DNA of 64,000 nucleotides from Lentisphaeria bacterium (GCA_041648735.1 JBAZOO010000005.1:1862-65861), one strand, 5' to 3'. Positions 23,654 through 37,335 are shown, counted from the first letter of the stretch. Notes: a model not told the origin generated them from the sequence alone. Numbers and translations: made by a program.

Positions 23654-25426
23654 TCAGGCTGGCCGTTCCGCCCCGGGGTGCGGCGGAACCAGGTGCCGCA
23701 CCAGCCGGAAGGTGATCAAGGTCTGGACAATGCTCAGCCCCTGGTTCACCGTCCAGTAGAGCGTCAGGCCGGCGGGCATGCCGTAGAAGATGAAGGCGAA
23801 GAAGAGGGTCATGAAGCTCATCATCTTGGCCTGGGCCGGATCCATGGAGCTGGGGGTCAGCTTCTGTTGCAGGAACATGGTGACGCCGGTGAGGATCGCC
23901 AGTGGCCGGATGGGCAGCAGGTGGGCGAGGAACGGCAGCGTGTCGGGCTGCGAGAGGTCCGCCACCCAGAGGAAGGGGGCCTGGCGCAGCTCGATGGCGC
24001 CGCGGAAGACGTTGAACAGGGCGAAGAAGACCGGGATCTGCAGGAGGATCGGCAGGCAGCCGCCAAGCGGGTTGACCTTGTGCTCGCGGTAAAGCTCCAT
24101 GATCTTCTGCTGCATGAGCTGCGGGCTGTCCTTGTATTTCTCCTTGAGCCCGGCCATCAGCGGCTGCAACCCCTGCATCTTCTTCATCGAGATCGTGCTG
24201 TAGTGGGTGAGTGGCCAGAAGAGGAACTTGACCAGCACGGTGATGAGGATGATGGCGACGCCATAGGCCCACGGCGCCCCGATCTGCCGCTGCACCCAGA
24301 GCATGCCGCCCAGGATCAGCCGGGAGACGCTGCCCATCCACTGGGGATGGAAGAAGAAGAACAGGTCCATCTGCAGCACGGAGTCGAGGCCGTTGCCCAG
24401 GGCGCGCAGCCGCGCGAGTTCCTTGGGGCCGGCGTAGACCGTGAAGCGCTGGGCCAGCTCCCCGCCCGCCGCGACCGTCGCCGGCGGCAGGAGCAGGTTC
24501 GCCGCCACGAACTGGATCTCGCCCGCGTCTGGCTCGCCGCCGGCGGCGCTGCCGGTTTCCAGTTCCGCCCCGGCGGCCGGGGCCTCGCCGGCCATGGCGA
24601 CCAGGAAGTACTTGGTGTGGGCGGCGGCCCAGGCGGTGCGCCGGCCGGCCAGCTCCCGCCGCTCCTCCGCCTTGGCCTTGCCGATCCCCTTCGGATTGTA
24701 CAGCTTCGCCCGCGATTCGCCGGCAAAGGCGACGCTGGCGGCCAGGTCGGCGGGGGCGCCCCAGCCGCCCTTGGCCTGCGCGGCGGGCAGCTCCATGAGC
24801 CCCGCCAGCACCGTCATCGGCTTCAGCTCCAGCGGCACGGTGCCGGTGTTGCGGAAGCGCACGGTGTAGGCGAGCTGGTAGGGGCGATCCGGAACCGCGG
24901 CCCATTCCTGGCGGAGGACAAGGCCGTCCGCCAGCGGCCGTTCGAGCACCAGCCGCTGGGCGGCCTGTTCGACGACCACGGCCGGGCCCTGGCCAGCCAG
25001 CGGCTGGCCCGCCAGCCGGATCTCGCCGGCGGCGCGCCCCGCATGGCCGAGCGTCATCGCGGCCGTCCGGGCGTCGTTCGGGTACTGCTCCAGCTCGACT
25101 TCGGCCAGGGCCCCCGTCCGCAGGTCGATGTGGGCCTGGTAGAAGCCGGGGACGGCGAGGTTGGCGAAGGCCGGCGTGCCGGTTGCCGCCGCGCCGGTTG
25201 CTGTGGGCGCGGGTTCAAGCGCCACGGCGGCGGGCGCCGCGGCGGTTGCGGTCGCCTGGCTGGCGGCGGTCGTCAGCGGGGGCGGTTCCGCCGGCGTCGC
25301 GGCGGCGGCCGGGCCGCTGGCGGGCGGCTCCGGCGCCGGCAGCAGCCCGAGCTGGCGCAGCAAGGGGTTCCAGGCCAGGATCAGCACCACGCAAAGGGCA
25401 ATGGCGGCAAGGCTCTTTTTATCCAT
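23654..25426 (-). CDS. yidC: Membrane protein insertase YidC
   Basis: Start [15 protein letters not shown] at 25426. C-terminal [16 protein letters not shown]...[18 protein letters not shown]. Confidence 0.9.
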
Positions 25427-25712
25427 GGGGAGTCCTAGTCCTTGGGGCTGGGGCGGCTGGCGGTGGGGGATCCCACAGCGGCCCACGGTAGAAGGGGTGG
25501 CATTTCAGGAGGCGGCGGAGGGCGAGCCAGCCGCCCCGGATGACGCCGAAACGGAGGACGGCTTCCAGGGCGTAGGCGGAACAGGTCGGCGTGAAGCGGC
25601 AGCAGGGAGGCTTGAAGGGGGAAAGGGCGAAGCGGTAGAAGCGCAGCCCCGCCGCCACGGCCAGGGCCGCGGTGCGCCGCCAGCCGGTGGGCGGCCGGGG
25701 GAGGGGGCTCAT
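25419..25712 (-). CDS. yidD: Membrane protein insertion efficiency factor YidD
   Basis: [27 protein letters not shown]...[15 protein letters not shown]. Confidence 0.85.
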
Positions 25713-26155
25713 GGCGCCTCCGGCGGCGGCGGGGGTGGCTGCCAGATGCCCAGCCGGGAACCGAAATGGAGCACTTCCGCCGCCACCGGCGCGAGCTTCT
25801 GCTTCTTGATCGGCTGGCGGGGAAGGAAGAGGAACCAGCAGGGCTGGATTCCCGGAGCCATCTGGCGGACGGCCTCGCGCAACAGGCGGCGCGCCCGGTT
25901 GCGCTCCACCGCCAAGGTGCTGAACCGGCGGGAGATGATGATCGCCACCCGTGGCTGGCCGTCGGGCGCCGGCAAGGCCTTCACCACCACGAACCGGCCG
26001 GCCCGGCTCTTCCCTTCGGCATGGACCAGTTGCAACTGCTGCCGGTTCCGCAGCCGGCTCTCCCGGGTGAAGGGGCGCCAGACGCGGGGCCGGGCCGTCG
26101 CGCCGGGCTGGCCGGCGGGCTCATGGGTGCTTGCGCTCGCCGGAAGCGTCGTCAC
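25709..26155 (-). CDS. rnpA: Ribonuclease P protein component
   Basis: [17 protein letters not shown]...[24 protein letters not shown]. Sits between rpmH and yidD. Start uncertain. Confidence 0.75.
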
Positions 26156-26171
26156 CAGCCCATCTCCTGGC

Positions 26172-26306
26172 TCAAACGGTCAGACGCTTGCGGCCTTTGC
26201 GCCGGCGGTTGGCCAGGATGGCCCGGCCGGCGCTGGTCTTCATGCGGGTGCGGAAGCCATGGACGCGCTTCCGGCGCAGTTTCGAGGGCTGGTAGGTCCG
26301 TTTCAT
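26172..26306 (-). CDS. rpmH: 50S ribosomal protein L34
   Basis: [44 protein letters not shown] (44 aa). This is the internal ATG of the listed 75-aa ORF. Confidence 0.95.
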
Positions 26307-26370
26307 GGGGGCATCCTCTTCTCGGTTGGCGCGCCGCGGCGCGTGGAGTGGCGGGAAAAAATGAAACCGT

Positions 26371-26399
26371 ACTATAGCTTGCCCGCGCCCTCCCGCCAA
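26371..26399 (-). promoter_or_regulatory. Likely sigma70 promoter of rpmH-rnpA-yidD-yidC-jag
   Basis: Minus strand reads TTGGCG-N17-TATAGT, about 65 nt upstream of the rpmH ATG. Confidence 0.4.
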
Positions 26400-26579
26400 T
26401 GGGCGTTGCGCACGGGAAACTGGAAACTGGGGTGTCCGTCCCCAATGTCCGGCTCACGGCCTACGGCTCACGGCTTGCGGCGGGCCGGGGAGGGGGCGGC
26501 TGGCGCTATATAGTACAGGGGTTGCCGCCGAGCCGCACCATCCCACACCCCATCATCCCCCTTTTCGGGCATTGACCTC

Positions 26580-28469
26580 ATGGCCACCCCTGATTTCGCT
26601 TCCGCCATCCGTGATCGCGTCCTGGTTTTTGACGGGGCCATGGGCACCGAGCTGTACCGGCGCCACGTCTTCACCAACCGCTGCTTCGACGAGCTGTGCG
26701 TCTCCTCGCCGGAGCTGGTCCGCGAGATCCACCAGGCCTACGCCGCGGCGGGGGCGGACGTGCTGACGACCAATTCCTACGGGGCCAACCGCCTGGCGCT
26801 GGGGCGCTATGGCTTCGGCGAGCAGGTGGCGGCGATCAACCGGGCGGCGGCGGCGGTGGCGCGCGCCGTGGCGGATGCGGCGGCGGGCGGGCGGCTGTTG
26901 GTCGCCGGCTCGGTGGGGCCAGTGCCGGCCACCGGCACGGACGCCGCCGGGCGGGTGGCAATGATGGCCGAGCAGATCGGGGCGCTGGCCGCCGGCGGGG
27001 CGGACTTGATCCTTTTTGAGACCTTGCCGAACCGGGAGGCGGCGGTGGAGGGCTGCCAGGCGATCCAGGCGGCCGCGGCGGGGCGGCCGTTCGTGCTGTC
27101 GTTCGCGGCGTATGACGACGACGACCGGACGATCGCCGAAACGCTCGGCCGGCTGCTGGCACCGCTGCCCGCCGGGCTGCCGGCGCCGGCGGCCCTCGGC
27201 TTCAACTGCGGCGCCGGCCCGGAACGGCTGCTGGCGGTGCTGGAGCGGGCGGTGCGCCTGACCGCGCTGCCGCTGGTCGTCCAGCCCAACGCTGGCCAGC
27301 CGCGGCTGGTGGAGAACCGCCAGCTCTACCTGTGCTCCCCCGAATACCTGACGAGCTATGCCCGGCGCTATGTGGAGCTTGGCGCCCGTGCCGTTGGCGG
27401 CTGCTGCGGCACCACGCCGGAGCACATCCGCGAGGTGGCGCGGGCGATCAAGCCGCTGGCGCGCCAACGGCTGGAGATCAAGGAGATCACGCCGCCGGCC
27501 GAGGCGCCGCTCAAGGCGCCGCTGCCGCTGGCGGAGAAGTCGCGGCTGGGGTGGAAGCTGGCCAACCGGCAGTGGGTGACCACGGTGGAGCTGCTGCCGC
27601 CCCGCGGCCATGAGCTGGCCGAGGTGGTGGCGAAGGCGGAACTCTGCCACCGGCGGGGGGTTGACGCGGTGAACATCCCCGACGGGCCGCGGGCGGCGCC
27701 CCGGCTGTCGCCGCTGGTCACCGCGCTGCGGCTCCAGGAGCGGGCCCGGATCGACACCGTGCTGCATGTCTGCTGCCGCGACCGCAACGTCATCAGCCTG
27801 CAGGCCGACCTGCTGGCCTGTGCCGCCTGCGGAGTCCGCAACCTGCTGTTCATCACCGGCGATCCGCCGAAGCTGGGCAACTACAGTTTTGCCTCGGGGG
27901 TGTTCGACACCGATTCCATCGGGCTGGTGGGGTTGCAGGCGCGGCTGAACCGTGGCGTCGACTTGGGGGGGCAGGTGGTCGAGCCGGCCACGGCGGCGGC
28001 GATTGGCGTCGGCGCCGACCCGGGTGCCCTGGATTTCGACCGGGAGGTGCGCCGCTTCCGCGCCAAGGTGGCGGCCGGCGCGGAGTTCGCCATCACCCAG
28101 CCGGTCTTCGCGGTGGCGCCGCTCTTCCGCTTCCTTGATGCCATTGCGGACTTGGAGATCCCGGTGATCGCCGGGATTTGGCCGCTGGCCAGCCTGCGCA
28201 ACGCCCTGTTCCTGAAGCATGAAGTGCCTGGCGTCACCGTTCCGGACGCGCTCATCAGCCGGATGGCGGCGGTGGCGACGAAGGAGGGGCAGCGGCAGGC
28301 CGGGATCGAGATCGCGCGGGAGGCGGTCGTCGCGGTCCGTGGCCGGGTGGCGGGGATCCAGGTCAGCGCGCCGTTGGGGAATGTGCTGACGGCGTTGGCG
28401 GTGGCGGAGTGTCCGGTGGTGTTGGCGGGCGCTGACGCTCCTGGGCGAGCTTGGTGCGGCCAGGCCTGA
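26580..28469 (+). CDS. yitJ: Bifunctional homocysteine S-methyltransferase / 5,10-methylenetetrahydrofolate reductase (YitJ-type fusion)
   Basis: The N-terminus is FDGAMGTELY...ADVLTTNSYGAN...GGCCGTTPEHI (Hcy-binding domain). The C-terminal half is MTHFR-like: TVELLPPRG...HVCCRDRN...LFITGDPP. Confidence 0.85.
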   Translation: MATPDFASAIRDRVLVFDGAMGTELYRRHVFTNRCFDELCVSSPELVREIHQAYAAAGADVLTTNSYGANRLALGRYGFGEQVAAINRAAAAVARAVADAAAGGRLLVAGSVGPVPATGTDAAGRVAMMAEQIGALAAGGADLILFETLPNREAAVEGCQAIQAAAAGRPFVLSFAAYDDDDRTIAETLGRLLAPLPAGLPAPAALGFNCGAGPERLLAVLERAVRLTALPLVVQPNAGQPRLVENRQLYLCSPEYLTSYARRYVELGARAVGGCCGTTPEHIREVARAIKPLARQRLEIKEITPPAEAPLKAPLPLAEKSRLGWKLANRQWVTTVELLPPRGHELAEVVAKAELCHRRGVDAVNIPDGPRAAPRLSPLVTALRLQERARIDTVLHVCCRDRNVISLQADLLACAACGVRNLLFITGDPPKLGNYSFASGVFDTDSIGLVGLQARLNRGVDLGGQVVEPATAAAIGVGADPGALDFDREVRRFRAKVAAGAEFAITQPVFAVAPLFRFLDAIADLEIPVIAGIWPLASLRNALFLKHEVPGVTVPDALISRMAAVATKEGQRQAGIEIAREAVVAVRGRVAGIQVSAPLGNVLTALAVAECPVVLAGADAPGRAWCGQA

Positions 28470-28561
28470 CCAAAGAAAAGCGGACTCCGCGGCCCTGGGG
28501 GCGCAGAGTCCACTGGGGAAACGAGCCTAGCAGTTGCCGCCGGCCGCCACGGACGCGGTGG
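28463..28561. repeat. 99-bp direct repeat, copy 1 (left boundary of island 1)
   Basis: GGCCTGACCAAAGAAAAGCGGACTCCGCGGCCCTGGGGG...GAAACGAGCCTAGCAGTTGCCGCCGGCCGCCACGG. Matches 33101-33199 with 4 substitutions and no indel. Confidence 0.9.
28470..28513 (-). terminator. Degenerate copy of the motif-hairpin terminator (downstream of the methyltransferase operon)
   Basis: Minus strand reads GTGGACTCTGC..loop..GCGGAGTCCGC then TTTTCTTTGG. Two stem mismatches relative to the copy at 33108-33151. Confidence 0.35.
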
Positions 28562-28712
28562 TGCGGCTCATCTTTGCGGCGTGGGGCTACAGCACCCCGG
28601 CGGAGCGGGCCCGGGCCGCCGCCCAGCCGCGGATCGAATCCTGGCCGCTGGGGCGCTTCACCGCCGCCCCCCATTCCCGCTGACTAGGCAGCGCAAGCTC
28701 CCGCTGCCAACG

Positions 28713-29831
28713 TCACGGGTCATGCGCGGCGGGTACGCCGTCGCATGCACCCGTTTGTTGGACCTTGTATTCTGCCTTTTCTTCAAACAAGACCATTTGC
28801 CTAACTTCATCACTTGATACTATCAAGTCATCTCTTGATGCCCGTGTGCTGCTACCGCTCTTGAAGCTGCAGAATACATCTTCAAGAGTCACGTTTGCGT
28901 CGTCGGAAACAAGTTCCGCAAGAACCTTACGGACAGACTCAAGGGGTCTTCCCTCAAGAAAGCGGAAAGCGGAAGCCGCCAAGTAGTCTCTGCTTAGGTC
29001 AAACGTCAGCCATCTGCGACCAAGCGCTTCTGCGGCAAATCCCGTTGTATTCGACCCACCGAAGAGATCCAAGACTATGTCTCCTTCATCGGTCAGCATC
29101 TTGATGAAGAATGTGGGCACTTCGACAGGGAACCGGGCAGGATGGCGTTCCAGTCCGAACTCCTTGCAGAGCCAAAGGTAACTGGAATTGCTGTCGGTAT
29201 TGGGGATGGTGAGCAGGTTCGATGGTATGGCACCGCCGTTGTCCTTGCCGAAGCCGGCACTGATGTCATGCCCGGATGGGCGTTTCTTCGGTTTGTAGAA
29301 ACTCCCGGGATCCTCAAGCAGTTTCTTCATCCGCTCGGAGTACGGGGCCAGGACCTTCCGTACGTCGGCTTTCGGAGAATCCGTTTTGCTGAACCACCAA
29401 ACCGTATTGACGGAGTCCTTGGCCCGAATCTTGCGCTTGTTCACCCACTCGATGGGGGATGGCAGCTTGGCTGGATTGAACCAGTAAAAATCCTCGGCTA
29501 GGTGAAAACCAACAGTATCGCAGAAGGTAAGCAGAACCCTGAAGTTGTAAAGCGAGCGTGACGGGACACCTGCTCGATAAGCACCGCCAAGATCAAGGAC
29601 AAAACTCCCGGTCTTCTTGAGAACTCTAAAGACCTCTCTGCCAAAAGGCGTAATCCAAGCTACATACTCTGTTTCCTCAACATTGCCGTATGATTTCTGC
29701 CGCCTCAGGGCAAACGGTGGGGAGGTCACTACAAGATCGATGCTTTCGTCCTCCATTTCCTTGAGGAGAGCCAAAGCATCGCCCACAACGGCCCGCCCGT
29801 AGCGTGTGACGTATAGCGGCGGAGTTCGCAT
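28713..29831 (-). CDS. Beta-class DNA methyltransferase (N4-cytosine or N6-adenine; SPPF motif favours N4-cytosine)
   Basis: Motif IV DLVVTSPPFAL precedes motif I DIVLDLFGGSNTTG (beta permutation, PF01555-type). AT-richer than flanks. The last ~15 codons run into high-GC DNA. Confidence 0.85.
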   Translation of the reverse strand: MRTPPLYVTRYGRAVVGDALALLKEMEDESIDLVVTSPPFALRRQKSYGNVEETEYVAWITPFGREVFRVLKKTGSFVLDLGGAYRAGVPSRSLYNFRVLLTFCDTVGFHLAEDFYWFNPAKLPSPIEWVNKRKIRAKDSVNTVWWFSKTDSPKADVRKVLAPYSERMKKLLEDPGSFYKPKKRPSGHDISAGFGKDNGGAIPSNLLTIPNTDSNSSYLWLCKEFGLERHPARFPVEVPTFFIKMLTDEGDIVLDLFGGSNTTGFAAEALGRRWLTFDLSRDYLAASAFRFLEGRPLESVRKVLAELVSDDANVTLEDVFCSFKSGSSTRASRDDLIVSSDEVRQMVLFEEKAEYKVQQTGACDGVPAAHDP

Positions 29832-29832
29832 T

Positions 29833-31308
29833 CTAGAACTCCCTCAAGCCGTCAACCCAACTTTCGAGAATCTGCCACAGGACACTTGCCGCGAAATAGA
29901 CCTCCGGGTCTGACTTACATATTGCACCTACGTCGGCTTCGGCAAGGTGATCCCTGCCGTGGCCGACGATGTAACTGACCCATTTCCTGAGGTTATCGTC
30001 CGCGCCAACGAGGACGGCGTTCGGGTCGAAACCGCCTGATCGCGCAAGTACCCAAGAAAGTCCGTCTCTCTGATCTGGCGAGCACGTCTTCAGCAAATCC
30101 ACCACATGAGCAACTTGTGGCCCTGTGATCCTGAGAAGTGATCTTGCCGCTTCTGTCTTCACATCCAGTGCGGTTGAGTTGAAGGTATCAACGAGAGCAC
30201 TTGCGGCAGTGCGGGTAGCGAACTGCCCGAGTGCCCAGGCCGCTCCTGCCCTGAGTTCCTCGTCGCGCCTACCATCTCGCAAGACATCGATGAGTAGGTT
30301 CTCGCTTCTGGGGTTCGGGATTTCCGAGACTACAATCACCGTTTCCAGTTGAGTCTCAAGCGGGACATCCATAACTGCACTACGCAGTTTGCTCTCTATG
30401 AATGCCCATCCTTCGGGATGGTCACACGCCGCGAGCGCTGCGGCTGCTTCGAGTTGCACGTAGATGTCTTCTTCCGCGTGGATAATCCTGTCTGCAAGCG
30501 CAGCGCGCGCGCTCGTGTACCCTCGATAGCGCAATGCCTTGGCGGCAGCATACCGCTCGCTTAGGTTGATACTGGTGAGCTTGGCAACAAAATACGCCTC
30601 ATCGACCGAGGGCGGGCAGGACACTGAGACTGTCACCGGAACGGAGGCCGCAACGATCTGGTTGGCTTCAACTGCGTCACCAACACGAACCTGCGGCTCC
30701 AGCGTGTTCGCTCCCTTACTGCGAAACAACTGGATCGTCTGAATGCGACCAGATGGTTGATGCGTCAACTGGATGCGCTTTGCCGAAACCTCGGAGACGG
30801 TTGACAGTTGCTTGGCTATTGCGGAGGGCCACACCACACGGATTTCCGAGCCTTCTTCGACCCCCTTCGGCTTGGTGATGGAGACGCGCTTCTGGGCAAA
30901 TGCGTCGCGCAAGTCCTTCACCTTGATGAACAGTACCGGCGAGATGCGTTTCAAGTCGATGGGTGACTTGGCGCTCTGCTGGAAGACGACGATCGAAACG
31001 AAGTCACCATCCCGCATTCCCGCATCCCATGCGCGCTTAGGGTCCTTCAGCGAGTGGGACATCGAGATTTCCGGCTTGGTCTTGCCTCTGGATTCAAAAC
31101 GCAGGCCTGTCTGCAGGCACAGAATGTCGGGTACGCGGACACGTTTGATCTTGATCTTCTTCCATATCTTGAAGCCGGTGGAGCCCCGCTCCAGCTCAAT
31201 CGGCCTGAAACCAAGTGCGGTCAAGCGGTCAATCGGTGCATTCGTCCCGGCAGCTCCCACCGCCAGTTTTCGTAAGAAACTGTCATCGCTTTTGAAGTTA
31301 GCCGCCAC
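29833..31308 (-). CDS. Putative restriction-endonuclease-like N-terminal domain fused to C-terminal HEAT (PBS-lyase-type) repeats
   Basis: GTG start with GAGG RBS. Stop lies 1 nt before the methyltransferase ATG. The candidate PD-(D/E)xK-like segment is VRVPDILCLQTGLRFESRGK. HEAT-like repeats include ERYAAAKALRYRG, ELRAGAAWALGQFA and VKTEAARSLLRITG. Confidence 0.45.
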   Translation of the reverse strand: MAANFKSDDSFLRKLAVGAAGTNAPIDRLTALGFRPIELERGSTGFKIWKKIKIKRVRVPDILCLQTGLRFESRGKTKPEISMSHSLKDPKRAWDAGMRDGDFVSIVVFQQSAKSPIDLKRISPVLFIKVKDLRDAFAQKRVSITKPKGVEEGSEIRVVWPSAIAKQLSTVSEVSAKRIQLTHQPSGRIQTIQLFRSKGANTLEPQVRVGDAVEANQIVAASVPVTVSVSCPPSVDEAYFVAKLTSINLSERYAAAKALRYRGYTSARAALADRIIHAEEDIYVQLEAAAALAACDHPEGWAFIESKLRSAVMDVPLETQLETVIVVSEIPNPRSENLLIDVLRDGRRDEELRAGAAWALGQFATRTAASALVDTFNSTALDVKTEAARSLLRITGPQVAHVVDLLKTCSPDQRDGLSWVLARSGGFDPNAVLVGADDNLRKWVSYIVGHGRDHLAEADVGAICKSDPEVYFAASVLWQILESWVDGLREF

Positions 31309-31417
31309 AAAACCTCATGTCGCTCTCGTCTGCCTGTAGGTAATTCACGTGTATCATCTTTCCGGCCCAACGCCGCCGGTCTGCGACGAGCGGAGCGAAG
31401 TCCGCAGCATCGGCTGG

Positions 31418-31591
31418 TTATGTCAATATCTTGAGGATGTGGCGGGCCAAGTTCTCGTCGATCTCAGTATGCCGCGGAACCGGTTGCCGCTTGCCCGTTT
31501 TCGGATTCACGAATAGATCGTGGCGTCCGCCTGCTCGTACGAAGACGCATCCGGCGGCGGTCAATCGCCGTATGAGTTCCTTGCGTTTCAT
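31418..31591 (-). CDS. hicA: HicA-family toxin (mRNA interferase)
   Basis: 57 aa, not in the ORF track: MKRKELIRRLTAAGCVFVRAGGRHDLFVNPKTGKRQPVPRHTEIDENLARHILKILT. The ATG overlaps the hicB stop (ATGA). Confidence 0.8.
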   Translation of the reverse strand: MKRKELIRRLTAAGCVFVRAGGRHDLFVNPKTGKRQPVPRHTEIDENLARHILKILT

Positions 31592-31785
31592 ACGGCCAAC
31601 ACGATCTCTCTGGTCTTGTGTTCAGTCGGAACATTATCAAGGATCATCAACCGGAAAGCGTCCAGCATGTTCTCTTCGAGTTCTTCGATGGTCTCGCCTT
31701 GGGTCATAATCTCCGGGTGGTCAACCAGTTTGCCGACCCAGAACTTCTCCCCCTTCCAGTAGATCATCTTCAACTTTGTCTTCAT
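31588..31785 (-). CDS. hicB: HicB-family antitoxin (N-terminal domain type)
   Basis: WVGKLVDHPEIMTQGETIEELEENMLDAFRLMI is typical of the HicB/UPF0150 fold. Translationally coupled to hicA. Confidence 0.7.
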   Translation of the reverse strand: MKTKLKMIYWKGEKFWVGKLVDHPEIMTQGETIEELEENMLDAFRLMILDNVPTEHKTREIVLAV

Positions 31786-31891
31786 CAGTCAACTCCTTTA
31801 TCTTTGATCATCCTCATGCGACATAACGTCTGCACTCATGGTTTTGGCGCGCTAGCGACAAATACCATGCAGTGCTTGGTTCGCATTTCCT

Positions 31892-32209
31892 TCAGTTGTA
31901 GCAACTGTAAACCATTATGACGACAAACAAAACGCCAGCGAGAAAGGGGATTGCACACACAATGCGTTTCAGCCATGAACCGGCGATTAGGACTGGAATT
32001 GACATGGCGGCAATGCCCAGCAGGCAGGCACACAGTGCAATGCCGACGGCCCTGTTGACCGCTGGTGACGGTGGTCCGGGGACAACACCGATGATGGGCA
32101 CTGTTCCTGAGTACCCACTCATGATGTGGCCATATACCAAAAGGATGGCTGCACCGAGGAGTGCCCAAGCCACTGAGACTTTTACCCAAGATGGATTCTT
32201 GATATTCAT
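31892..32209 (-). CDS. Small integral membrane protein (3 predicted TM helices), unknown function
   Basis: 105 aa with hydrophobic segments VSVAWALLGAAILLVYG, AVGIALCACLLGIAAMSIPVLIAG and VCAIPFLAGVLFVVIMV. AT-richer island. Confidence 0.45.
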   Translation of the reverse strand: MNIKNPSWVKVSVAWALLGAAILLVYGHIMSGYSGTVPIIGVVPGPPSPAVNRAVGIALCACLLGIAAMSIPVLIAGSWLKRIVCAIPFLAGVLFVVIMVYSCYN

Positions 32210-32407
32210 CTCATCATGCTAACTTATTATTCAACGGTTTTTCCGGGTTTGCCGGCCGAATCGGACGGGGCGGCGGTTCCCGCCGCGGCGGGCCAGCAGA
32301 AGGCACTGTATCTGCCGCCCGGGGGAAAGCAAGCCTCCGGTTCCGCCGAAGCACTTCGCGCGCCCGGCCCCGCCACCGGGCAGGCCAACCCATTTTCATT
32401 TGTGCAT

Positions 32408-32450
32408 GAAACCAACGGGTTGCGGCAGGAATGCCGTTGCCGTTGGTTTC
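32408..32450 (+). other. Strong orphan hairpin (possible terminator of an unannotated transcript)
   Basis: GAAACCAACGG (32408-32418) pairs perfectly with CCGTTGGTTTC (32440-32450). Inner stem GCGGCA/TGCCGT with a GGAA loop. Followed by TTCGTTTCC. Lies in about 490 nt without a credible ORF. Confidence 0.4.
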
Positions 32451-32604
32451 TTCGTTTCCCCCATTTGGCCTTTCACCTTGGCTTGGCCTGGGGCATTTTC
32501 GCCGATCCACTCGGAACCTGCCATTCCGGACTCCGACTCCGTGGATTCCGTGTGCTCCGGGCGAACGAAGGGGGCTTGGGTTTCACGGGGAGAGGCGCCG
32601 GCAC

Positions 32605-32632
32605 TTGCCTGTCCTGAAATATATGCTATTAT
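32605..32632 (+). promoter_or_regulatory. Possible sigma70 promoter of ssb
   Basis: TTGCCT-N16-TATTAT in the only AT-rich patch upstream of the ssb ATG (32707). Confidence 0.4.
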
Positions 32633-32706
32633 TAATTGGCATCCATCAAGGGTGCGGCCGCCCGCGCGGCGGCCAGCCATGCTCCCAGCCAGGAAAGGGC
32701 ACCGCC

Positions 32707-33168
32707 ATGAACGATCTGAACAAGGTCCTGATCACCGGCAACCTGGTGTGCGACCCCGAGTGCAAGCAACTGCCAGCCGGCAGCCGGGCCTGCGAACTCC
32801 GCATCGGCGTCAACCGCCAGTTCAACGACCGGGAAGGAACGGCCAAGACGGAAGCCTGCTTCGTCAACATTGACCTGTTCGGCGCCGTGGCCGAAATCGC
32901 CGGCAACTCCCTGCGGCGCGGTTCCGCCGTGTTCATCGAGGGGCGGCTCAAGCTCGACCAATGGGAGGACAAGCAAAGCGGCAAGCGCCTGAGCCGCCTC
33001 CGGATCATTGGCGAGCAGGTGCGTTGCCTCCAGCCGGTGGCTGCCGGCCGCGCCGCCGCCCCGAAACCCTTGGCGGCGGCGCCTTCCCCAGCGGCATCCC
33101 GGCCTGACCAAAGAAAAGCGGACTCCGCGGCCCTGGGGGGGCGGAGTCCGCTGGGGAAACGAGCCTAG
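32707..33168 (+). CDS. ssb: Single-stranded DNA-binding protein, OB fold intact, canonical acidic C-terminal tip absent
   Basis: LNKVLITGNLVCDPECKQLP...CFVNIDLFGAVAEIAGNSLRRGSAVFIEGRLKLDQWEDK. The last ~23 codons (from 33101) are encoded by the 99-bp repeat and end ...SPLGKRA instead of a D-D-D-I-P-F-type tip. Confidence 0.85.
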   Translation: MNDLNKVLITGNLVCDPECKQLPAGSRACELRIGVNRQFNDREGTAKTEACFVNIDLFGAVAEIAGNSLRRGSAVFIEGRLKLDQWEDKQSGKRLSRLRIIGEQVRCLQPVAAGRAAAPKPLAAAPSPAASRPDQRKADSAALGGRSPLGKRA

Positions 33169-33199
33169 CAGTTGCCGCCGGCCGCCACGGGCGCGGTGG
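33101..33199. repeat. 99-bp direct repeat, copy 2 (right boundary of island 1)
   Basis: See copy 1. This copy carries the intact inverted pair GCGGACTCCGC / GCGGAGTCCGC. Confidence 0.9.
33108..33151 (-). terminator. Rho-independent terminator of the GGGtGRT/NifU-like operon, built from an inverted pair of the abundant motif
   Basis: Minus strand reads GCGGACTCCGC-11 nt loop-GCGGAGTCCGC (perfect 11-bp stem) followed by TTTTCTTTGG. Lies 64 nt after the stop at 33215. Confidence 0.6.
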
Positions 33200-33214
33200 C
33201 GGCCGGTTCCGGGT

Positions 33215-34216
33215 TCACTGCTTCAGCGCTTCCTCGATGGCGACGGCGACGGCGACGGTGGCGCCGACCATCGGGTTGTTGCCCATGCCGATCAGCCCCA
33301 TCATTTCGACGTGGGCCGGCACCGAGGAGGAGCCGGCGAACTGGGCGTCGGAATGCATCCGCCCCATGGTGTCGGTCATGCCGTAGGAGGCGGGGCCGGC
33401 GGCCATGTTGTCCGGGTGGAGGGTGCGGCCGGTGCCGCCGCCGGAGGCGACGGAGAAGTAGCGGCGGCCCTTCTCGACGCATTCCTTCTTGTAGGTGCCG
33501 GCGACCGGGTGCTGGAAGCGGGTCGGATTGGTGGAGTTGCCGGTGATCGAGACGTCCACCCCTTCCTTCCACATGATCGCCACCCCCTCGCGCACGTCGT
33601 CGGCGCCATAGACGCGGACCTTGGCCTTGTCGCCCGTGGAGAAGGGCTTCTCGGCGACGATGGCGAGTTCGCCGGTGGCGTAGTTGAACTGGGTCTTGAC
33701 GTAGGTGAAGCCGTTGATGCGGCTGATGATGTAGGCGGCGTCCTTGCCCAGGCCGTTGAGGATGACGCGGAGCGGCTGCTGGCGCACCTTGTTGGCGGAC
33801 TTGGCGATGCCGATGGCGCCCTCGGCGGCGGCGAAGGACTCGTGGCCGGCGAGGAAGCAGAAGCACTGGGTCTGCTCGCGCAGCAGCATGGCGGCGAGGT
33901 TGCCGTGGCCGATGCCGACCTTGCGGTCGTCGGCGACGGAGCCGGGGATGCAGAAGGCCTGGAGCCCTTCGCCGATCGCCTCGGCGGCGGCGGCGGCCTT
34001 GGTGCAGCCCTTCTTCAGGGCGATGGCGGCGCCGACCACGTAGGCCCAGCCGGCGTTCTCGAAGGCGATGGACTGGATGTCCTTGGTGATCTTGCAGGGG
34101 TCAATGCCCTTGCCCTTGCAGATCGCCTCGGCTTCCTCGATGGAGCCGATGCCGTGCTTCTTCAGCGCCGCGAGGATCTGCGGCAGGCGGCGGTCGTAGG
34201 ATTCAAAGAGAGCCAT
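33215..34216 (-). CDS. GGGtGRT family protein (conserved, function unknown)
   Basis: Contains the eponymous SVASGGGTGRTLHPDN. 333 aa. Confidence 0.85.
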   Translation of the reverse strand: MALFESYDRRLPQILAALKKHGIGSIEEAEAICKGKGIDPCKITKDIQSIAFENAGWAYVVGAAIALKKGCTKAAAAAEAIGEGLQAFCIPGSVADDRKVGIGHGNLAAMLLREQTQCFCFLAGHESFAAAEGAIGIAKSANKVRQQPLRVILNGLGKDAAYIISRINGFTYVKTQFNYATGELAIVAEKPFSTGDKAKVRVYGADDVREGVAIMWKEGVDVSITGNSTNPTRFQHPVAGTYKKECVEKGRRYFSVASGGGTGRTLHPDNMAAGPASYGMTDTMGRMHSDAQFAGSSSVPAHVEMMGLIGMGNNPMVGATVAVAVAIEEALKQ

Positions 34217-34243
34217 GATGGGAAACTCCTTCCGTGGGATGGG

Positions 34244-34936
34244 TCATTCGTGGCGCGGATCAATGGTCTTGGCGGCGTCGGCGAAGCGGCCGTAGGTGCC
34301 GGTGGCCTTCTTCAGCGCCTCGGCGGCGGCGGTGCCCTTCTTGATCAGGTCAAGCATGGCGCCCAGGCGGATGAACTCATAGCCGATGATCTCGCCGTCC
34401 GCGTCGAGGGCGAGCCGGGTGACGTAGCCTTCGGCCATCTCCAGGTAGCGCGGCCCCTTGGCCTGGGTGCCGTACATGGTGCCGACCTGGGAGCGGAGCC
34501 CCTTGCCGAGGTCTTCAAGGCCGGCGCCGATGGGCAGGCCGCCCTCGGAGAAGGCCGACTGGGTGCGGCCATAGGCGATCTGGAGGAACAGCTCGCGCAT
34601 GGCGGTGTTGATGGCGTCGCACACCAGGTCGGTGTTCAGCGCTTCCAGGAGGGTCTTGCCGGGGAGGATTTCCGCGGCCATGGCGGCGGAATGGGTCATG
34701 CCGGAGCAGCCGATGGTCTCGACCAGGCATTCCGCGATGACGCCGGCCTTGACGTTGAGGGTGAGCTTGCAGGCGCCCTGCTGCGGGGCGCACCAGCCGA
34801 CGCCGTGGGTCAGGCCGGAGATGTCCTTGATTTCCTTGGCCTGCACCCACTTGCCTTCCTCGGGGATGGGGGCCGGGCCGTGGTCGCAGCCCTTCTTGAC
34901 GCAGCACATCTGCTGGACTTCGTGCGAGTAGATCAT
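34244..34936 (-). CDS. NifU/IscU-like iron-sulfur cluster scaffold-like protein
   Basis: Start MIYSHEVQQ at 34936. Cys-rich VGWCAPQQGACKL...ETIGCSGMTHSAAMAAE...LEALN resembles the IscU N-terminal domain. Usual partner of GGGtGRT genes. Confidence 0.7.
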   Translation of the reverse strand: MIYSHEVQQMCCVKKGCDHGPAPIPEEGKWVQAKEIKDISGLTHGVGWCAPQQGACKLTLNVKAGVIAECLVETIGCSGMTHSAAMAAEILPGKTLLEALNTDLVCDAINTAMRELFLQIAYGRTQSAFSEGGLPIGAGLEDLGKGLRSQVGTMYGTQAKGPRYLEMAEGYVTRLALDADGEIIGYEFIRLGAMLDLIKKGTAAAEALKKATGTYGRFADAAKTIDPRHE

Positions 34937-35113
34937 GTCGTGTCGCGGTTCCTGTGTTGGGGACTCGGGGGGCGGTTTTGCCCGGGGCGGGAAGCTGGCT
35001 ACTATAAAAGTGGGGGCTGGAAACGCCACTTGGGGGGAGGGGGGCGCCATTCCTTTCCGTTCGGGCCGGCGGCGGGCTATACTACGGCATGGCCGCAATC
35101 CCGGAGGTGTACG

Positions 35114-35437
35114 ATGGCGGAGCGCTACCACCAAATGGTCGTGTATGTGCCGGCAACCCATGTCGAGGAAGTGAAGGCGGCGCTGTTCGGGGGCGGCGCG
35201 GGGCGGCTAGGGAACTACGAATGCTGCTGCTGGCAGACCGTTGGCACCGGCCAGTTCCGGCCGTTGGCGGGGAGCAGCCCGGCGATTGGGTGCCAAGGGA
35301 TTGTCGAGTCGGTGGCGGAGGTCAAGCTGGAGGTTATTTGCCCGGAAGCCGCCCTGCCGGCCGTGATCGCCGGCTTGCGCCAGGCCCATCCCTACGAAAC
35401 CCCGGCCTTCATGCATTGGCCGGTCTCCCTGGACTGA
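35114..35437 (+). CDS. Stand-alone YqfO/NIF3 insert-domain (PII-like fold) protein
   Basis: MVVYVPATHVEEVKAALFGGGAGRLGNYECCCWQTVGTGQFRPL...AHPYETPAF closely follows the insert domain of B. subtilis YqfO as I recall it. Confidence 0.7.
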   Translation: MAERYHQMVVYVPATHVEEVKAALFGGGAGRLGNYECCCWQTVGTGQFRPLAGSSPAIGCQGIVESVAEVKLEVICPEAALPAVIAGLRQAHPYETPAFMHWPVSLD

Positions 35438-35599
35438 CCGCCCGGCGGCGGCCACCGCGCCGCGCCGAAACTTTTTCGGGCGGTTATAGTCCTATCCAGT
35501 GTAGGCATGATGAACGGCGATCAGAGGCCCGTCGGGACACGCGGCCGGCGCATGGGGCGGTGGCCGCGGAAGGGCCGGAAGCGAACCGGAGGTGAGACT

Positions 35600-35947
35600 A
35601 TGCTGGACCTGCTGAAGAAAGGCATCTACATCGGCCTTGGCCTGGCGAGCATGACCAAGGAGAAGGCCGACGCGCTGGCCAAGGAGGTTACGGAAAAGGC
35701 CAAGCTGACCGAGGAGGAGGGGCGCAAGTTCGCCAGCGCGCTGGAGGAGGAGTCGAAGAAGGCGCAGGATCAGTTGCGCACGACCGTCGAGGCGCTGGTC
35801 GAGAAGGCGGTGAAGGTTTGCCCCGGCTGCAAGCTGGTCAAAGGGCTGGAGCGGCGGCTGGCCGCGCTCGAAGCCAAGTGCGGCGGCGCGCCCGCCGGCG
35901 AGGCGGAGCCGCCCTGCGACGAGCCCGGCTGTTCCTGCAATTCGTGA
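35600..35947 (+). CDS. Phasin-like / PHA-granule regulator-like coiled-coil protein with Cys-rich C-terminus
   Basis: MLDLLKKGIYIGLGLASMTKEKADALAKEV... (COG3937-like). C-terminus CPGCK...CDEPGCSC. GGAGGTGAG RBS. Confidence 0.5.
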   Translation: MLDLLKKGIYIGLGLASMTKEKADALAKEVTEKAKLTEEEGRKFASALEEESKKAQDQLRTTVEALVEKAVKVCPGCKLVKGLERRLAALEAKCGGAPAGEAEPPCDEPGCSCNS

Positions 35948-35971
35948 ACGGCGGCCCGGCCCGAGCGACTG

Positions 35972-37255: not shown

Positions 37256-37335
37256 AATGTGGGTGCAGCGGCTGGCGGCGGGTTGCCTGCCGGCGGCGTT
37301 GGCGGCAGGCGAAGAATGACGCAAGGAGGTGGCAA

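What the first reader, a model, noticed from the sequence alone, without database searches (positions are those of the whole stretch)
28463..33199. Island 1: 4.6-kb segment bounded by 99-bp direct repeats, no integrase
Two 99-bp copies (28463-28561 and 33101-33199; 4 substitutions, same orientation) bracket an AT-richer block (about 28.76-32.2 kb). The block carries the methyltransferase, the nuclease-like/HEAT protein, hicBA and a membrane protein. It is followed by about 0.9 kb of host-like GC (a non-coding stretch and ssb). The repeat is itself a minus-strand terminator module: intact in the right copy, with two stem mismatches in the left copy. Both bounding genes end inside the repeat: the yitJ stop at 28467-28469, and the last 23 codons of ssb. 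The methyltransferase reading frame runs about 45 nt into high-GC DNA. A 50-codon open frame without a start (28534-28686, ...RLIFAAWGYSTPAERARAAAQPRIESWPLGRF) looks like a leftover gene end. No integrase, transposase or tRNA is present. This fits acquisition by recombination at a short repeated element rather than site-specific integration.
Basis: partly seen in the sequence, partly recalled or inferred. Interest (0 to 1): 0.6.

Follow-up and report, generated by a model that had tools for sequence, protein, structure and literature searches.

The report
Integron cassettes inserted with target duplication
A 4.5-kb piece of DNA, whose core is three integron-type gene cassettes (a restriction-modification pair, a toxin-antitoxin pair and a small membrane gene), sits between two host genes and is bracketed by a 99-bp duplication of the host's own terminator region; both ingredients are known kinds of gene mobility, so the case is instructive rather than new.

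Summary
Two 99-102-nt direct copies (28460/63-28561 and 33098/101-33199, 4-5 substitutions) bracket a low-GC block, and the window has no integrase or tRNA. It is three contiguous integron-type cassettes on the minus strand (28711-32234), each ending in an attC-like hairpin at a G|TT boundary. The main cassette (a 491-aa HEAT protein plus an M.PvuII-like methyltransferase) recurs at 82-83% DNA identity in unrelated organisms, including as the first cassette of a complete integron. The repeats are not the cassette ends. They lie 149 and 866 nt outside the array. The DNA in between is host-like and ends in two truncated genes: a 3' gene remnant, and an ssb cut at codon 131 whose repeat-encoded tail has non-coding-like codon usage. 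The best reading is that a 4.5-kb fragment carrying the array was inserted into the yitJ/GGGtGRT convergent terminator region with a long target duplication. This phenomenon is documented for restriction-modification units, and I found it again around the same module in four other loci. No empty site could be found because no close relatives exist in the collections, so the insertion model stays inferred (about 0.55). A second island in the window has the same architecture, with a 1.9-kb duplication.

The parts
26580..28469 (+). Left flanking host gene: yitJ-like bifunctional homocysteine S-methyltransferase/MTHFR. The conserved C-terminus ends near 28412. The last 18 codons (28413-28466) have no counterpart in homologs and use non-host-like codons. 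The stop codon TGA (28467-28469) lies inside the left repeat.
   Evidence: Pfam PF02574+PF02219. Alignment with 11 homologs. Tail CAI 0.32, at the 1.8% quantile of host windows.
28460..28561 (.). Left copy of the direct repeat (99 nt from 28463, 102 nt from 28460). It contains hairpin 1 (28479-28514, with two G.U wobbles in the minus-strand RNA). It also contains only the 5' arm, the loop and 4 nt of the 3' arm of hairpin 2. Its right end is read as a novel junction with the insert.
28562..28710 (+). High-GC (0.75) left end of the insert. It is the 3' remnant of an unidentified gene 'X': the frame is open to the stop at 28684-28686, with host-like codon usage. About 24 nt follow, up to the cassette-array boundary.
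   Evidence: GC and six-frame translation. Codon phase 0.72/0.86/0.65. CAI 0.82, GC3 0.90. No family identified.
28705..28763 (-). attC site of the HEAT-MTase cassette: R'' is GTCCAAC, then an imperfect palindrome with two single-base bulges on the 5' arm, then R' G|TTGGCA (cut between 28711 and 28710). It overlaps the 3' end of the methyltransferase ORF.
   Evidence: DNA homology to L099/L101 ends here. Fold -39 kcal/mol, z = -6.2 against shuffles. Compensatory changes relative to the L099/L101 attC. Arm asymmetry.
28713..29831 (-). N4-cytosine DNA methyltransferase, a close homolog of M.PvuII (recognition site CAGCTG in PvuII).
   Evidence: PDB 1boo E = 1e-129 over residues 4-297. PF01555. 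PADLOC MTase_II 5e-148.
29833..31308 (-). 491-aa protein, translationally coupled to the methyltransferase. The N-terminal ~235 aa are an uncharacterised domain with an invariant P60-D61...E72-x-R74-x-K76 motif, a candidate PD-(D/E)xK nuclease. The C-terminal half is HEAT repeats. It is the candidate restriction enzyme of the pair.
   Evidence: PF13646. 1314 homologs, 70-90% identical, nearly all 491 aa, in many phyla. The MTase follows it in 70 of 71 loci. AF2 model pLDDT 84. Only weak fold hits to Hjc resolvases. No sequence hits for the N-terminal domain.
31365..31424 (-). Candidate attC of the hicBA cassette, ending at G|TTGGGCC (cut between 31371 and 31370). This point is the conserved start of the HEAT-MTase cassette in other loci.
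   Evidence: The homology break falls at GTTGGGCC in four loci. GTTRRRY lies 61-66 nt upstream of the HEAT gene in about 30 of 82 loci. The hairpin itself is weak, z = -0.65. One bulge lies on the 5' arm.
31418..31785 (-). Toxin-antitoxin cassette: HicA toxin (31418-31591) and an overlapping 65-aa upstream partner (31588-31785). The partner is a presumed antitoxin with no family match. A promoter-like site lies at 31792-31763.
   Evidence: PF07927 5e-12. No hit for the partner. Promoter scan.
31821..31885 (-). attC-like site of the membrane-ORF cassette, with R' G|TTATGT (cut between 31827 and 31826).
   Evidence: Fold z = -3.6. Two bulged bases on the 5' arm with the same spacing as in the MTase attC.
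31892..32234 (-). First cassette: a 105-aa predicted membrane ORF (31892-32209) of unknown family. The cassette begins at G|TTGAAT (G at 32235), exactly where GC content switches.
   Evidence: GC by segment.
32235..32706 (.). Non-coding, intermediate-to-high-GC stretch (0.62) inside the bracket. It shows no codon periodicity and carries a promoter-like site for ssb (32605-32632). It is read as the donor locus's intergenic region upstream of ssb.
   Evidence: No Rfam family. No IntI remnant.
32707..33168 (+). ssb ORF (153 aa). Codons 1-131 (32707-33099) encode a genuine OB-fold SSB of a subfamily that lacks the acidic tip. Codons 132-153 are read from the right repeat and look like fortuitous read-through, so the gene is truncated and fused at the junction.
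   Evidence: PF00436. Alignment with homologs that end in a conserved AGR[LV]E.FSGRR motif missing here. Tail similarity not significant, 49% of shuffles score as well. Tail CAI 0.27 (0.4% quantile) against 0.68 for the 5' part.
33098..33199 (.). Right copy of the direct repeat. Hairpin 1 (33117-33152) is a perfect 12-bp stem followed by UUUUCUUU on the minus strand, a terminator for the GGGtGRT operon. It is built from two copies of the genome's over-represented GCGGASTCCGC motif. Hairpin 2 (33178-33206) continues past the repeat end into native DNA.
33215..34216 (-). Right flanking host gene: GGGtGRT-family protein, convergent with yitJ in the reconstructed empty site.
   Evidence: PF14057 1.6e-192.

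Best explanation
There are two nested layers.

Layer 1 (well supported). The low-GC block 28711-32234 is a short array of three integron-type gene cassettes without an integrase (a 'CALIN'), all on the minus strand:
- a small membrane ORF;
- a hicBA-type toxin-antitoxin pair;
- a two-gene restriction-modification-like module, made of a 491-aa protein (uncharacterised N-terminal domain plus HEAT repeats) and an M.PvuII-like N4-cytosine methyltransferase.
Each cassette ends in an attC-like imperfect hairpin, and each boundary is at a G|TT. An integron integrase acting elsewhere assembled the array. It probably entered a 'G|TT' site about 24 nt downstream of a gene X and about 470 nt upstream of an ssb gene, in a genome with the same codon usage as this host.

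Layer 2 (inferred). A 4.54-kb fragment of that locus (28562 to about 33100) was inserted into the terminator region shared by the convergent genes yitJ and GGGtGRT. The fragment runs: 3' end of X, cassette array, intergenic DNA, first 131 codons of ssb. Its left end joined after, and its right end joined before, the same 99-102 nt of target, so that stretch is now present on both sides. This is 'insertion with long target duplication'. It needs two copies of the target at the moment of joining, either sister chromosomes or template switching at a replication fork, or else a single crossover by a circular intermediate that already carried one copy.

Afterwards the left copy terminates the methyltransferase operon and the right copy still terminates the GGGtGRT operon. 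The yitJ and ssb ORFs simply run on to the first stop codon in the repeat.
For: Cassette layer:
- DNA homology of 82-83% to unrelated loci covers exactly 28707-31372.
- In all those loci the shared unit starts at G|TTGGGCC and ends in a GYCCAAC...GTT hairpin.
- In L101 the unit is the first cassette next to a bona fide integron integrase (TIGR02249, 424 bits against a cutoff of 265), with attC-like sites after each following ORF.
- Integrase homologs also lie upstream in L118, L120 and L186.
- R'' is conserved while the bases after the GTT of R' vary.
- The window's attC differs from the L099 attC by compensatory changes and folds with z = -6.2; the membrane-ORF attC has z = -3.6.
- All three window sites carry their bulged bases on the same arm.
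- The first cassette starts at G|TTGAAT exactly at the GC switch.
- Cassette genes have CAI 0.24-0.47 against 0.68-0.82 for the flanks.
- The HEAT protein has 90%-identical relatives in other phyla, whereas host yitJ finds nothing above 74%.
- CAGCTG is absent from 59 kb of host DNA where 32.5 are expected, and is the most depleted palindrome in module-bearing loci (0.26 against 0.77 in controls).

Insertion layer:
- Only two repeat copies exist in the window and none in 2.1 Mb of other loci.
- The left copy is continuous with yitJ, and the right copy is continuous with the rest of hairpin 2 and GGGtGRT.
- Both ends of the bracketed DNA are truncated genes with host-type codons.
- The SSB lacks its subfamily's conserved C-terminal motif, and its repeat-encoded tail is codon-atypical.
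- The reconstructed empty site is a normal 108-nt convergent intergenic region.
- The same module is flanked by 54-125-nt direct repeats of host sequence, including a host gene's 3' end in L166, in 5 of 60 loci (4 independent). Mismatched controls give 11 of 3540. The insert termini are non-conserved.
- This matches the published class in repeat length, imperfect identity, repeats spanning a stop codon and absence of mobility genes (PMC2853133).
- A second island in the window has the same topology, with a 1.88-kb duplication.
Against: - No empty site or close relative could be found, so the target duplication is inferred from anatomy alone.
- The genome-wide copy number of the repeat is unknown; only 64 kb were seen.
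- This ssb is the only close copy in the protein database and has the same overall length as its homologs. It could therefore be the host's own gene, with the right repeat as its native 3' end.
- The two copies differ by 4-5%. That is high for a recent duplication next to un-ameliorated foreign DNA, although 3-15% is seen in the other examples.
- The attC sites were recognised by hand (cores, hairpins, cross-locus boundaries), not with the IntegronFinder covariance model. The hicA attC hairpin is weak (z = -0.65).
- The nuclease role of the 491-aa protein is not shown: there are no sequence hits and only sub-threshold fold hits.
- The scenario needs two steps: array insertion at a donor locus, then fragment transfer.
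Confidence: 0.55

Rival explanations
1. ssb is the host's own gene at its native place, and the right repeat is its true 3' end plus the terminators. The cassette array inserted upstream of ssb. The left copy is a displaced fragment left by a separate rearrangement. One route would be a tandem duplication of the X3'-ssb-repeat unit, followed by a deletion that removed the first ssb copy and the 5' part of gene X and fused the remnant to the end of yitJ.
For: - ssb has host-like GC3 (0.85) and CAI (0.68).
- Its closest homologs are ordinary chromosomal genes in related Lentisphaeria MAGs.
- No second close copy is on record.
- Its total length matches its homologs.
- yitJ's 18-codon tail is codon-atypical, as expected if a deletion endpoint lies there.
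- The X remnant is a truncated host-like gene.
Against: - It needs at least two extra events.
- It puts a strong terminator hairpin for the opposing operon inside the ssb coding sequence.
- The repeat-encoded tail has non-coding-like codon usage (0.4% quantile) and no significant similarity to the conserved tail motif of the subfamily.
- Synteny with relatives (ssb convergent with dnaJ) is not kept anyway.
- It does not explain why the same module is flanked by long host duplications elsewhere.
Confidence: 0.2
2. The 99-nt element is one member of a dispersed multi-copy intergenic repeat family. The segment between two pre-existing copies was gained, or merely happens to lie, between them. Homologous recombination between copies would be the acquisition route.
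For: Hairpin 1 is built from an 11-13-nt palindromic motif that occurs 18 times in the window against 0.2 expected. A similar motif-pair hairpin exists at 57925-57965.
Against: The full element occurs only twice in 64 kb and nowhere in 2.1 Mb of other loci, including related contigs. The other motif sites share nothing beyond the 11-13-mer. The left copy's boundary cuts through hairpin 2, which is not expected for a discrete repeat unit.
Confidence: 0.08
3. The bracket is attL/attR of a degraded integrative island. That island would have entered by a tyrosine or serine recombinase at a 99-bp att site in the yitJ 3' end and later lost its integrase.
For: Direct repeats that include the 3' end of a gene are typical of att sites. 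Cargo of defence and toxin-antitoxin genes is typical of islands.
Against: - No integrase, excisionase or remnant lies between the repeats or anywhere in the window.
- Both ends of the bracketed DNA are truncated host-type genes rather than element ends.
- No tRNA is present.
- The repeat-flanked copies of the module in other loci have unrelated termini and unrelated repeats.
Confidence: 0.07
4. Assembly artefact: a chimeric contig joined at a short repeat.
For: Metagenomic origin. In one sample the contigs break 8 nt after the left copy and inside the HEAT gene.
Against: Two independent assemblies (JGI 3300036987, ENA ERZ27247363) give the identical 21.9-kb structure across both copies, and a third covers both halves. 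The copies differ at 4-5 positions, so they are not collapsed repeats.
Confidence: 0.02

Closest known systems
Insertion with long target duplication of restriction-modification units (Nobusato et al. 2000, Gene 259:99; Furuta, Abe & Kobayashi 2010, PMC2853133)
   Same: An insert of a few kb carries a methyltransferase and its partner. Its GC differs from the host. It has no integrase or transposase. It is flanked by imperfect direct repeats well over 30 bp long (46-423 bp in the paper, 99-102 bp here) made of host sequence that spans the stop codon of the neighbouring gene. The repeat is otherwise unique.
   Different: No empty-site genome is available, and that is the paper's defining test. 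The insert is not just the R-M unit: it also carries two further cassettes and truncated host-type genes at both ends. The restriction partner is an uncharacterised HEAT-repeat protein whose nuclease activity is not shown. The R-M unit is itself an integron cassette.
[quoted passage not shown] 2016, PMC4889954); and IntI-mediated cassette insertion at genomic attG sites (Loot et al., bioRxiv 10.1101/2022.09.11.507474)
   Same: Two or more co-oriented cassettes each end in an attC-like hairpin, with boundaries at G|TT. No intI or intI pseudogene is nearby. One cassette is a toxin-antitoxin pair with its own promoter. The array is small (three cassettes) and sits in an intergenic region. The reconstructed entry site CCG|TTGGCAGC has the G|TT and a CAGC motif like the attG consensus.
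   Different: The attC sites were not called with the IntegronFinder model. The CAGC motif is one position off the published attG register. The array lies inside a larger fragment that moved by a different, non-integron route. The phylum (Lentisphaerota-like MAG) is not one where integrons are usually discussed.
PvuII restriction-modification system
   Same: The methyltransferase aligns with M.PvuII over almost its full length (E = 1e-129). The PvuII site CAGCTG is completely avoided in the host sequence.
   Different: There is no R.PvuII homolog and no C (controller) protein. The partner gene is a 491-aa protein with an unknown N-terminal domain plus HEAT repeats, placed upstream in the same operon. 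The recognition sequence has not been determined.

Membership tests
Insertion with long target duplication (R-M-linked; Furuta et al. 2010 criteria) | Direct repeats longer than 30 bp flank the insert | tested here: met
   99-102 nt, 95-96% identical.
Insertion with long target duplication (R-M-linked; Furuta et al. 2010 criteria) | The insert contains both M and R gene homologs | tested here: inconclusive
   M is met: an M.PvuII homolog. R is only a candidate. Supporting it: conserved operon partner in 70 of 71 loci, a PD..ExRxK motif, weak Hjc-like fold hits and CAGCTG avoidance. Against it: no sequence or significant structural match to any nuclease.
Insertion with long target duplication (R-M-linked; Furuta et al. 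2010 criteria) | Insert under 20 kb with no other mobility genes | tested here: met
   The insert is 4.54 kb with no integrase, transposase or tRNA. Caveat: it contains attC sites, but these do not coincide with the repeat junctions.
Insertion with long target duplication (R-M-linked; Furuta et al. 2010 criteria) | A related genome shows the empty site with a single copy of the repeated sequence | not testable with these tools
   The best yitJ relatives are 74% identical or less and have no shared synteny. The repeat pattern was absent from the metagenome collection.
Insertion with long target duplication (R-M-linked; Furuta et al. 2010 criteria) | The repeat is not a multi-copy genomic element | tested here: inconclusive
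   Only two copies in 64 kb and none in 2.1 Mb of other loci. The whole genome was not available. One hairpin arm is a multi-copy 11-mer.
CALIN / integron cassette array (Cury et al. 2016) | At least two attC sites on one strand within 4 kb | tested here: met
   Three sites on the minus strand at 28705-28763, 31365-31424 and 31821-31885. Two are strong hairpins (z = -6.2 and -3.6) and one is weak. They were recognised by R''/R' cores, arm asymmetry and cross-locus boundaries, not by the IntegronFinder covariance model.
CALIN / integron cassette array (Cury et al. 2016) | No integron integrase or pseudogene nearby | tested here: met
   tblastn with the L101 IntI against the whole 64-kb window gave only a 22-aa chance hit at E = 0.79.
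CALIN / integron cassette array (Cury et al. 2016) | The cassette can be shown to be a cassette in a complete integron | tested here: met
   The HEAT-MTase unit is the first cassette next to intI in L101 (TIGR02249, 424 bits). IntI homologs lie upstream in L118, L120 and L186.
Type II R-M system of PvuII type | Methyltransferase homologous to M.PvuII | tested here: met
   1boo_A, E = 1.3e-129, residues 4-297.
Type II R-M system of PvuII type | R.PvuII-type endonuclease and C protein | tested here: not met
No small HTH ORF was identified. The system is therefore not filed as a PvuII-family member, only as having a PvuII-like methyltransferase.
HicAB toxin-antitoxin | HicA toxin domain | tested here: met
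   PF07927, 5e-12.
HicAB toxin-antitoxin | HicB antitoxin domain in the partner | tested here: not met
   The 65-aa upstream ORF has no Pfam, NCBIfam or PADLOC hit. Only its position and 4-nt overlap suggest an antitoxin.
Integrase-mediated genomic island (attL/attR) | Site-specific recombinase gene in or next to the island | tested here: not met

The most novel reading that the evidence does not exclude
The 491-aa HEAT-domain protein plus M.PvuII-like methyltransferase is an autonomous mobile restriction-modification unit with two independent routes of spread. One route is as an integron cassette. The other is a break-driven self-insertion that drags along whatever DNA it is attached to, here two neighbouring cassettes and pieces of host genes, and creates long, variable target duplications. 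The recurrent 54-125-nt host duplications around this one module in unrelated genomes would then be the footprint of its own activity. That would give an experimentally tractable system for a mechanism that has been unexplained since 2000.
Probability: 0.2. Interest if true: 0.75.

Novelty: new member of a known kind. Interest (0 to 1): 0.45.

Why it matters
- **Reading 'no integrase' islands.** An island without an integrase but with long direct repeats can hide two stacked mobility mechanisms. Here integron recombination assembled the cargo, and an integrase-independent insertion with long target duplication placed it.
- **A candidate new restriction system.** The work identifies a very widespread, highly conserved two-gene module (a HEAT-repeat protein plus an M.PvuII-like methyltransferase, with over 1300 homologs at 70-90% identity across phyla). 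It is a probable CAGCTG-specific restriction-modification system with an uncharacterised restriction component.
- **A tractable example of an unexplained mechanism.** The same module occurs both as an integron cassette and bracketed by long host duplications. That makes it a good concrete system for studying how such duplications arise, which the literature still lists as unknown.
- **Annotation.** The ssb ORF here is probably a truncated fusion, and the yitJ tail is read-through.

Tried and rejected
1. **Empty site in relatives.** The genome-contig scan with yitJ gave at best 60% identity. The protein-database relatives at 65-74% (P0002, P0003, P0005) have completely different neighbours. No conclusion is possible.
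2. **Genome-wide copy count.** The metagenome DNA scan for a 29-nt repeat core found nothing, not even the source contig, so the source is not in that collection.
3. **Is the 'leftover' frame the displaced yitJ C-terminus?** Rejected. yitJ keeps its full conserved C-terminus.
4. **Did the array disrupt a host gene?** Rejected. No ORF with host-like GC3 spans the reconstructed join, and the 470-nt stretch has no codon periodicity.
5. **Is a gene like those upstream of ssb in relatives present here?** No hit (the rest of that output was high-GC noise).
6. **Is the repeat-encoded SSB tail homologous to the relatives' tails?** Not significant; 49% of shuffles score as well. I had first leaned toward this from the MAFFT alignment and withdrew it.
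7. **Is the repeat itself an attC site?** Rejected. It has two separate hairpins, no R''/R' cores, and no G|TT at its ends.
8. **Identity of gene X.** Only a borderline 32-residue match to an unannotated 111-aa ORF on a 1.5-kb contig with no DNA homology.
10. **Allelic or in-situ origin of repeat divergence, using Island 2.** Uninformative. Only 11 substitutions, clustered, 6 synonymous and 5 non-synonymous.
11. **Similarity of the hicA and membrane-ORF attC candidates to attC sites in fetched arrays.** None found.

Full report
**1. Checking the observation**

The two copies are real. MAFFT and the repeat finder place them at 28460/63-28561 and 33098/101-33199. That is 99 nt with 4 substitutions, or 102 nt with 5. 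A 39-nt core matches only these two places in the 64-kb window, with 0 expected by chance.

GC falls from 0.70-0.75 to 0.48-0.59 between about 28.7 and 32.2 kb. Pfam confirms the gene list:
- a yitJ-like gene (26580-28469, +);
- an N4/N6 methyltransferase (28713-29831, -);
- a 491-aa HEAT protein (29833-31308, -);
- HicA (31418-31591, -) with an overlapping 65-aa partner;
- a 105-aa membrane ORF (31892-32209, -);
- about 470 nt without genes;
- ssb (32707-33168, +);
- GGGtGRT (33215-34216, -).

The window has no tRNA. The window is 100% identical to contigs from three metagenome assemblies, so the structure is not an assembly accident. NCBI names the source 'Lentisphaeria bacterium'.

**2. Anatomy of the repeat**

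The repeat holds two hairpins. Hairpin 1 (33117-33152) has a perfect 12-bp stem followed by UUUUCUUU on the minus strand. It is a terminator for the GGGtGRT operon. In the left copy the two stem changes are G-to-A on the + strand. In the minus-strand RNA these give G.U wobbles, so the hairpin survives.

Hairpin 2 (CCGGCCGCCAC...GTGGCGGCCGG, 33178-33206) is complete only at the right copy. The repeat ends 4-6 nt into its 3' arm, so in the left copy it is cut. The right copy is therefore continuous with native DNA on its right, and the left copy is continuous with yitJ on its left.

**3. What the low-GC block is**

The methyltransferase is a close homolog of M.PvuII (PDB 1boo, E = 1e-129).

The 491-aa protein belongs to a strikingly uniform family. 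It has 1314 database hits, nearly all exactly 491 aa and 70-90% identical, from Hydrogenedentes, Polaromonas, Accumulibacter, Nitrospinae and others. The host's yitJ finds nothing above 74%. In 70 of 71 loci with room, the methyltransferase follows the HEAT gene.

At the DNA level the window matches unrelated loci at 82-83% over exactly 28707-31372. Alignment of the ends shows that in every locus the shared unit starts at G|TTGGGCC. It ends with GCCCAAC, about 50 nt of imperfect palindrome, then GTT. These are the R'' (RYYYAAC) and R' (G|TTRRRY) cores of integron attC sites.

L101 carries a true integron integrase right upstream and divergent (TIGR02249, 424 bits against a cutoff of 265). attC-like hairpins follow each later ORF in L101. 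IntI homologs also lie upstream in L118, L120 and L186. Across loci R'' is conserved, but the bases after the GTT of R' vary. That is expected, because those bases come from the next cassette.

The window's own attC (28705-28763) folds at -39 kcal/mol (z = -6.2) and differs from the L099 attC by compensatory changes.

The other two gene sets are also cassette-like:
- The membrane ORF's unit starts at G|TTGAAT (G at 32235), exactly at the GC switch. It ends in a hairpin at 31821-31885 (z = -3.6) with G|TTATGT.
- The hicBA unit ends at the G|TTGGGCC that starts the next cassette. Its hairpin is weak (z = -0.65).

All three sites have their single-base bulges on the same arm. This asymmetry marks the recombinogenic strand of attC sites (my knowledge of attC biology).

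So 28711-32234 is a three-cassette array with no integrase in 64 kb. That makes it a CALIN in the sense of Cury et al. (PMC4889954). Small CALINs may arise by IntI-mediated insertion at genomic 'attG' sites (bioRxiv 10.1101/2022.09.11.507474). The reconstructed entry site CCG|TTGGCAGC has the G|TT and a CAGC one position off the published register, which is weak support.

**4. Is the pair a restriction-modification system?**

The N-terminal 235 aa of the HEAT protein have no Pfam, PDB or R.PvuII similarity. The full-length AF2 model is good (pLDDT 84), but fold search sees only the HEAT repeats. A stand-alone domain model is poor, and its best matches are sub-threshold hits to Hjc resolvases, which have the PD-(D/E)xK fold. 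An invariant P60-D61...E72-x-R74-x-K76 motif fits that fold.

There is independent support from site avoidance. CAGCTG, the PvuII site, occurs 0 times in 59 kb of host sequence where 32.5 are expected. It is the most depleted palindrome in 79 module-bearing loci (observed/expected 0.26, against 0.77 in 85 control loci). I treat the pair as a probable R-M system with an unproven nuclease.

**5. How the repeats relate to the array**

The repeats are not the cassette ends. Between the left copy and the array lie 149 nt of GC 0.75, with an open frame to 28686 whose codon usage is fully host-like (CAI 0.82, GC3 0.90). This is the 3' remnant of an unidentified gene X. Between the array and the right copy lie 471 nt of non-coding DNA with an ssb promoter-like site, followed by ssb.

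The closest SSB homologs (45-54% identical, from Lentisphaeria MAGs) also lack the acidic DDIPF tip. They end instead in a conserved AGR[LV]E.FSGRR motif and are ordinary chromosomal genes convergent with dnaJ.

I first thought the window's repeat-encoded tail (…GGRSPLGKRA) was a diverged version of that motif, which would make the right copy native to ssb. A shuffle test did not support this: 49% of shuffles score as well. The 22 tail codons also have CAI 0.27, at the 0.4% quantile of host windows, against 0.68 for codons 1-131.

So ssb is most likely truncated at codon 131 and reads on into non-coding DNA. The bracketed DNA (28562 to about 33100) thus begins and ends inside genes that use this host's codon dialect. 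That is what a random chromosomal fragment from the same or a closely related genome would look like. It is not what a discrete element with its own ends would look like.

**6. The insertion model**

Removing one copy and the bracketed DNA gives yitJ-stop, two hairpins, then GGGtGRT-stop, 108 nt in all. This is a standard convergent terminator region. The topology is that of 'insertion with long target duplication': the left copy is native on its left, the right copy is native on its right, and the two inner junctions are novel with 3 nt or less of microhomology.

This class was described for R-M units by the Kobayashi laboratory. Its features are repeats of 46-423 bp, imperfect identity, repeats often spanning a stop codon, no mobility genes and an unknown mechanism (PMC2853133).

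Among 60 loci carrying the same module with both flanks present, 5 (4 independent) have direct repeats of 54-125 nt (85-97% identical) on either side. Mismatched controls give 11 of 3540, and most of those come from shared attC sequence or duplicate loci. In L166 the repeat is the last 125 nt of a host gene. The inserts share only the two genes, and their termini are unrelated.

The window therefore looks like a larger example of the same thing, in which the module's neighbours were carried along. What is shown is the anatomy. What is inferred is the event itself and that the module has anything to do with causing it.

**7. A second example in the same window**

A low-GC block (core about 53.0-55.5 kb; an SPFH/Band-7+SHOCT gene, a zinc-ribbon/TM2-like ORF and an unknown gene) lies between 1,881-bp direct copies of host DNA (50624-52504 and 55558-57396). 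The copies differ by 11 substitutions and a 42-nt indel.

The left copy is continuous with an intact AP_endonuc_2 gene, and the right copy is continuous with the full-length M24 peptidase. There are no attC sites and no defence-library hits.

The same topology with a duplication 20 times longer argues for a general route in this lineage rather than something specific to the R-M module. Candidates are a single crossover by a circular intermediate carrying one target copy, or template switching at a replication fork. This tempers the 'self-mobile R-M' reading.

**8. Limits**

- No close relatives exist in the collections, so no empty site could be examined.
- The genome-wide copy number of the repeat is unknown.
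- The attC sites were called by hand.
- The rival in which ssb is native and the left copy is a rearrangement remnant cannot be excluded (I give it 0.2).
- The 4-5% divergence between the copies is unexplained. It may reflect age or donor/recipient alleles.

**9. Verdict**

The repeats are best explained as a long target duplication, a known integrase-independent mode. Each component is a known kind, and the combination is a useful worked example rather than a new category. Interest 0.45.

Noticed in passing
window 50624-57396 (insert 52505-55557): Second island with the same architecture. A 3.05-kb insert with a low-GC core carries an SPFH/Band_7_1+SHOCT gene (54364-55383), a 314-aa unknown and a zinc-ribbon/TM2-like ORF. 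It is bracketed by 1,881-bp direct copies of host DNA that differ by 11 substitutions and a 42-nt indel. The left copy is continuous with an intact AP_endonuc_2 gene, and the right copy with the full-length M24 peptidase. No attC sites and no PADLOC hits.
   Followed up: partly
window, 18 sites (e.g. 3425, 4187, 27829, 33118, 33141, 57925, 57955): The near-palindromic motif (T)GCGGASTCCGC(A) occurs 18 times in 64 kb against 0.2 expected, mostly inside genes. Pairs of it form hairpin 1 of the repeat and another hairpin at 57925-57965. It also occurs in related Lentisphaeria contigs (L095: 4, L093: 2) but not in unrelated ones. It might be an uptake-signal-like or regulatory motif, and it is unexplained.
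   Followed up: partly
whole window outside 28463-33199; loci L099-L186: The PvuII site CAGCTG is completely absent from 59 kb of host sequence (32.5 expected). It is the most depleted 6-bp palindrome in loci carrying the HEAT-MTase module (observed/expected 0.26, against 0.77 in controls).
   Followed up: yes
L166:627-751 / 3492-3616; L144:592-655 / 3451-3516; L171:1684-1737 / 4540-4593; L172:1637-1697 / 4425-4485: In four independent metagenome loci the same HEAT-MTase module is flanked by 54-125-nt direct repeats of host sequence. In L166 the repeat is the 3' end of a host gene. The insert termini are unrelated between loci.
   Followed up: partly
L101:6480-14386; L118 and L186:3489-9808: These are complete integrons in uncultured bacteria with the HEAT-MTase pair as an early cassette. 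L101 also carries a second R-M cassette (N6_N4_Mtase plus MvaI_BcnI). L118 has 121-nt, 98%-identical attC sites.
   Followed up: partly
L112 (6978-bp contig): A contig carrying the module has identical 115-nt ends, so it may be a circular molecule or an assembly wrap-around at a repeat.
   Followed up: no
window 32707-33099 and P0122-P0127: A subfamily of SSB proteins in Lentisphaeria-like MAGs lacks the canonical acidic DDIPF tip. It ends instead in a conserved AGR[LV]E[SAT]FSGRR..A motif, and the gene is convergent with and overlaps a dnaJ-like gene.
   Followed up: partly
window 228-691: Lys/Ala/Pro-rich coding repeats with 33-nt periodicity (AKPAAK-type, histone-H1-like) at the start of the window (family D2).
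   Followed up: no
window 24733-28569 (L003) and 30167-43889 (L006): In sample 3300037046 the assembly breaks 8 nt past the left repeat copy and again inside the HEAT gene. This could be low coverage or strain heterogeneity at the island.
   Followed up: no
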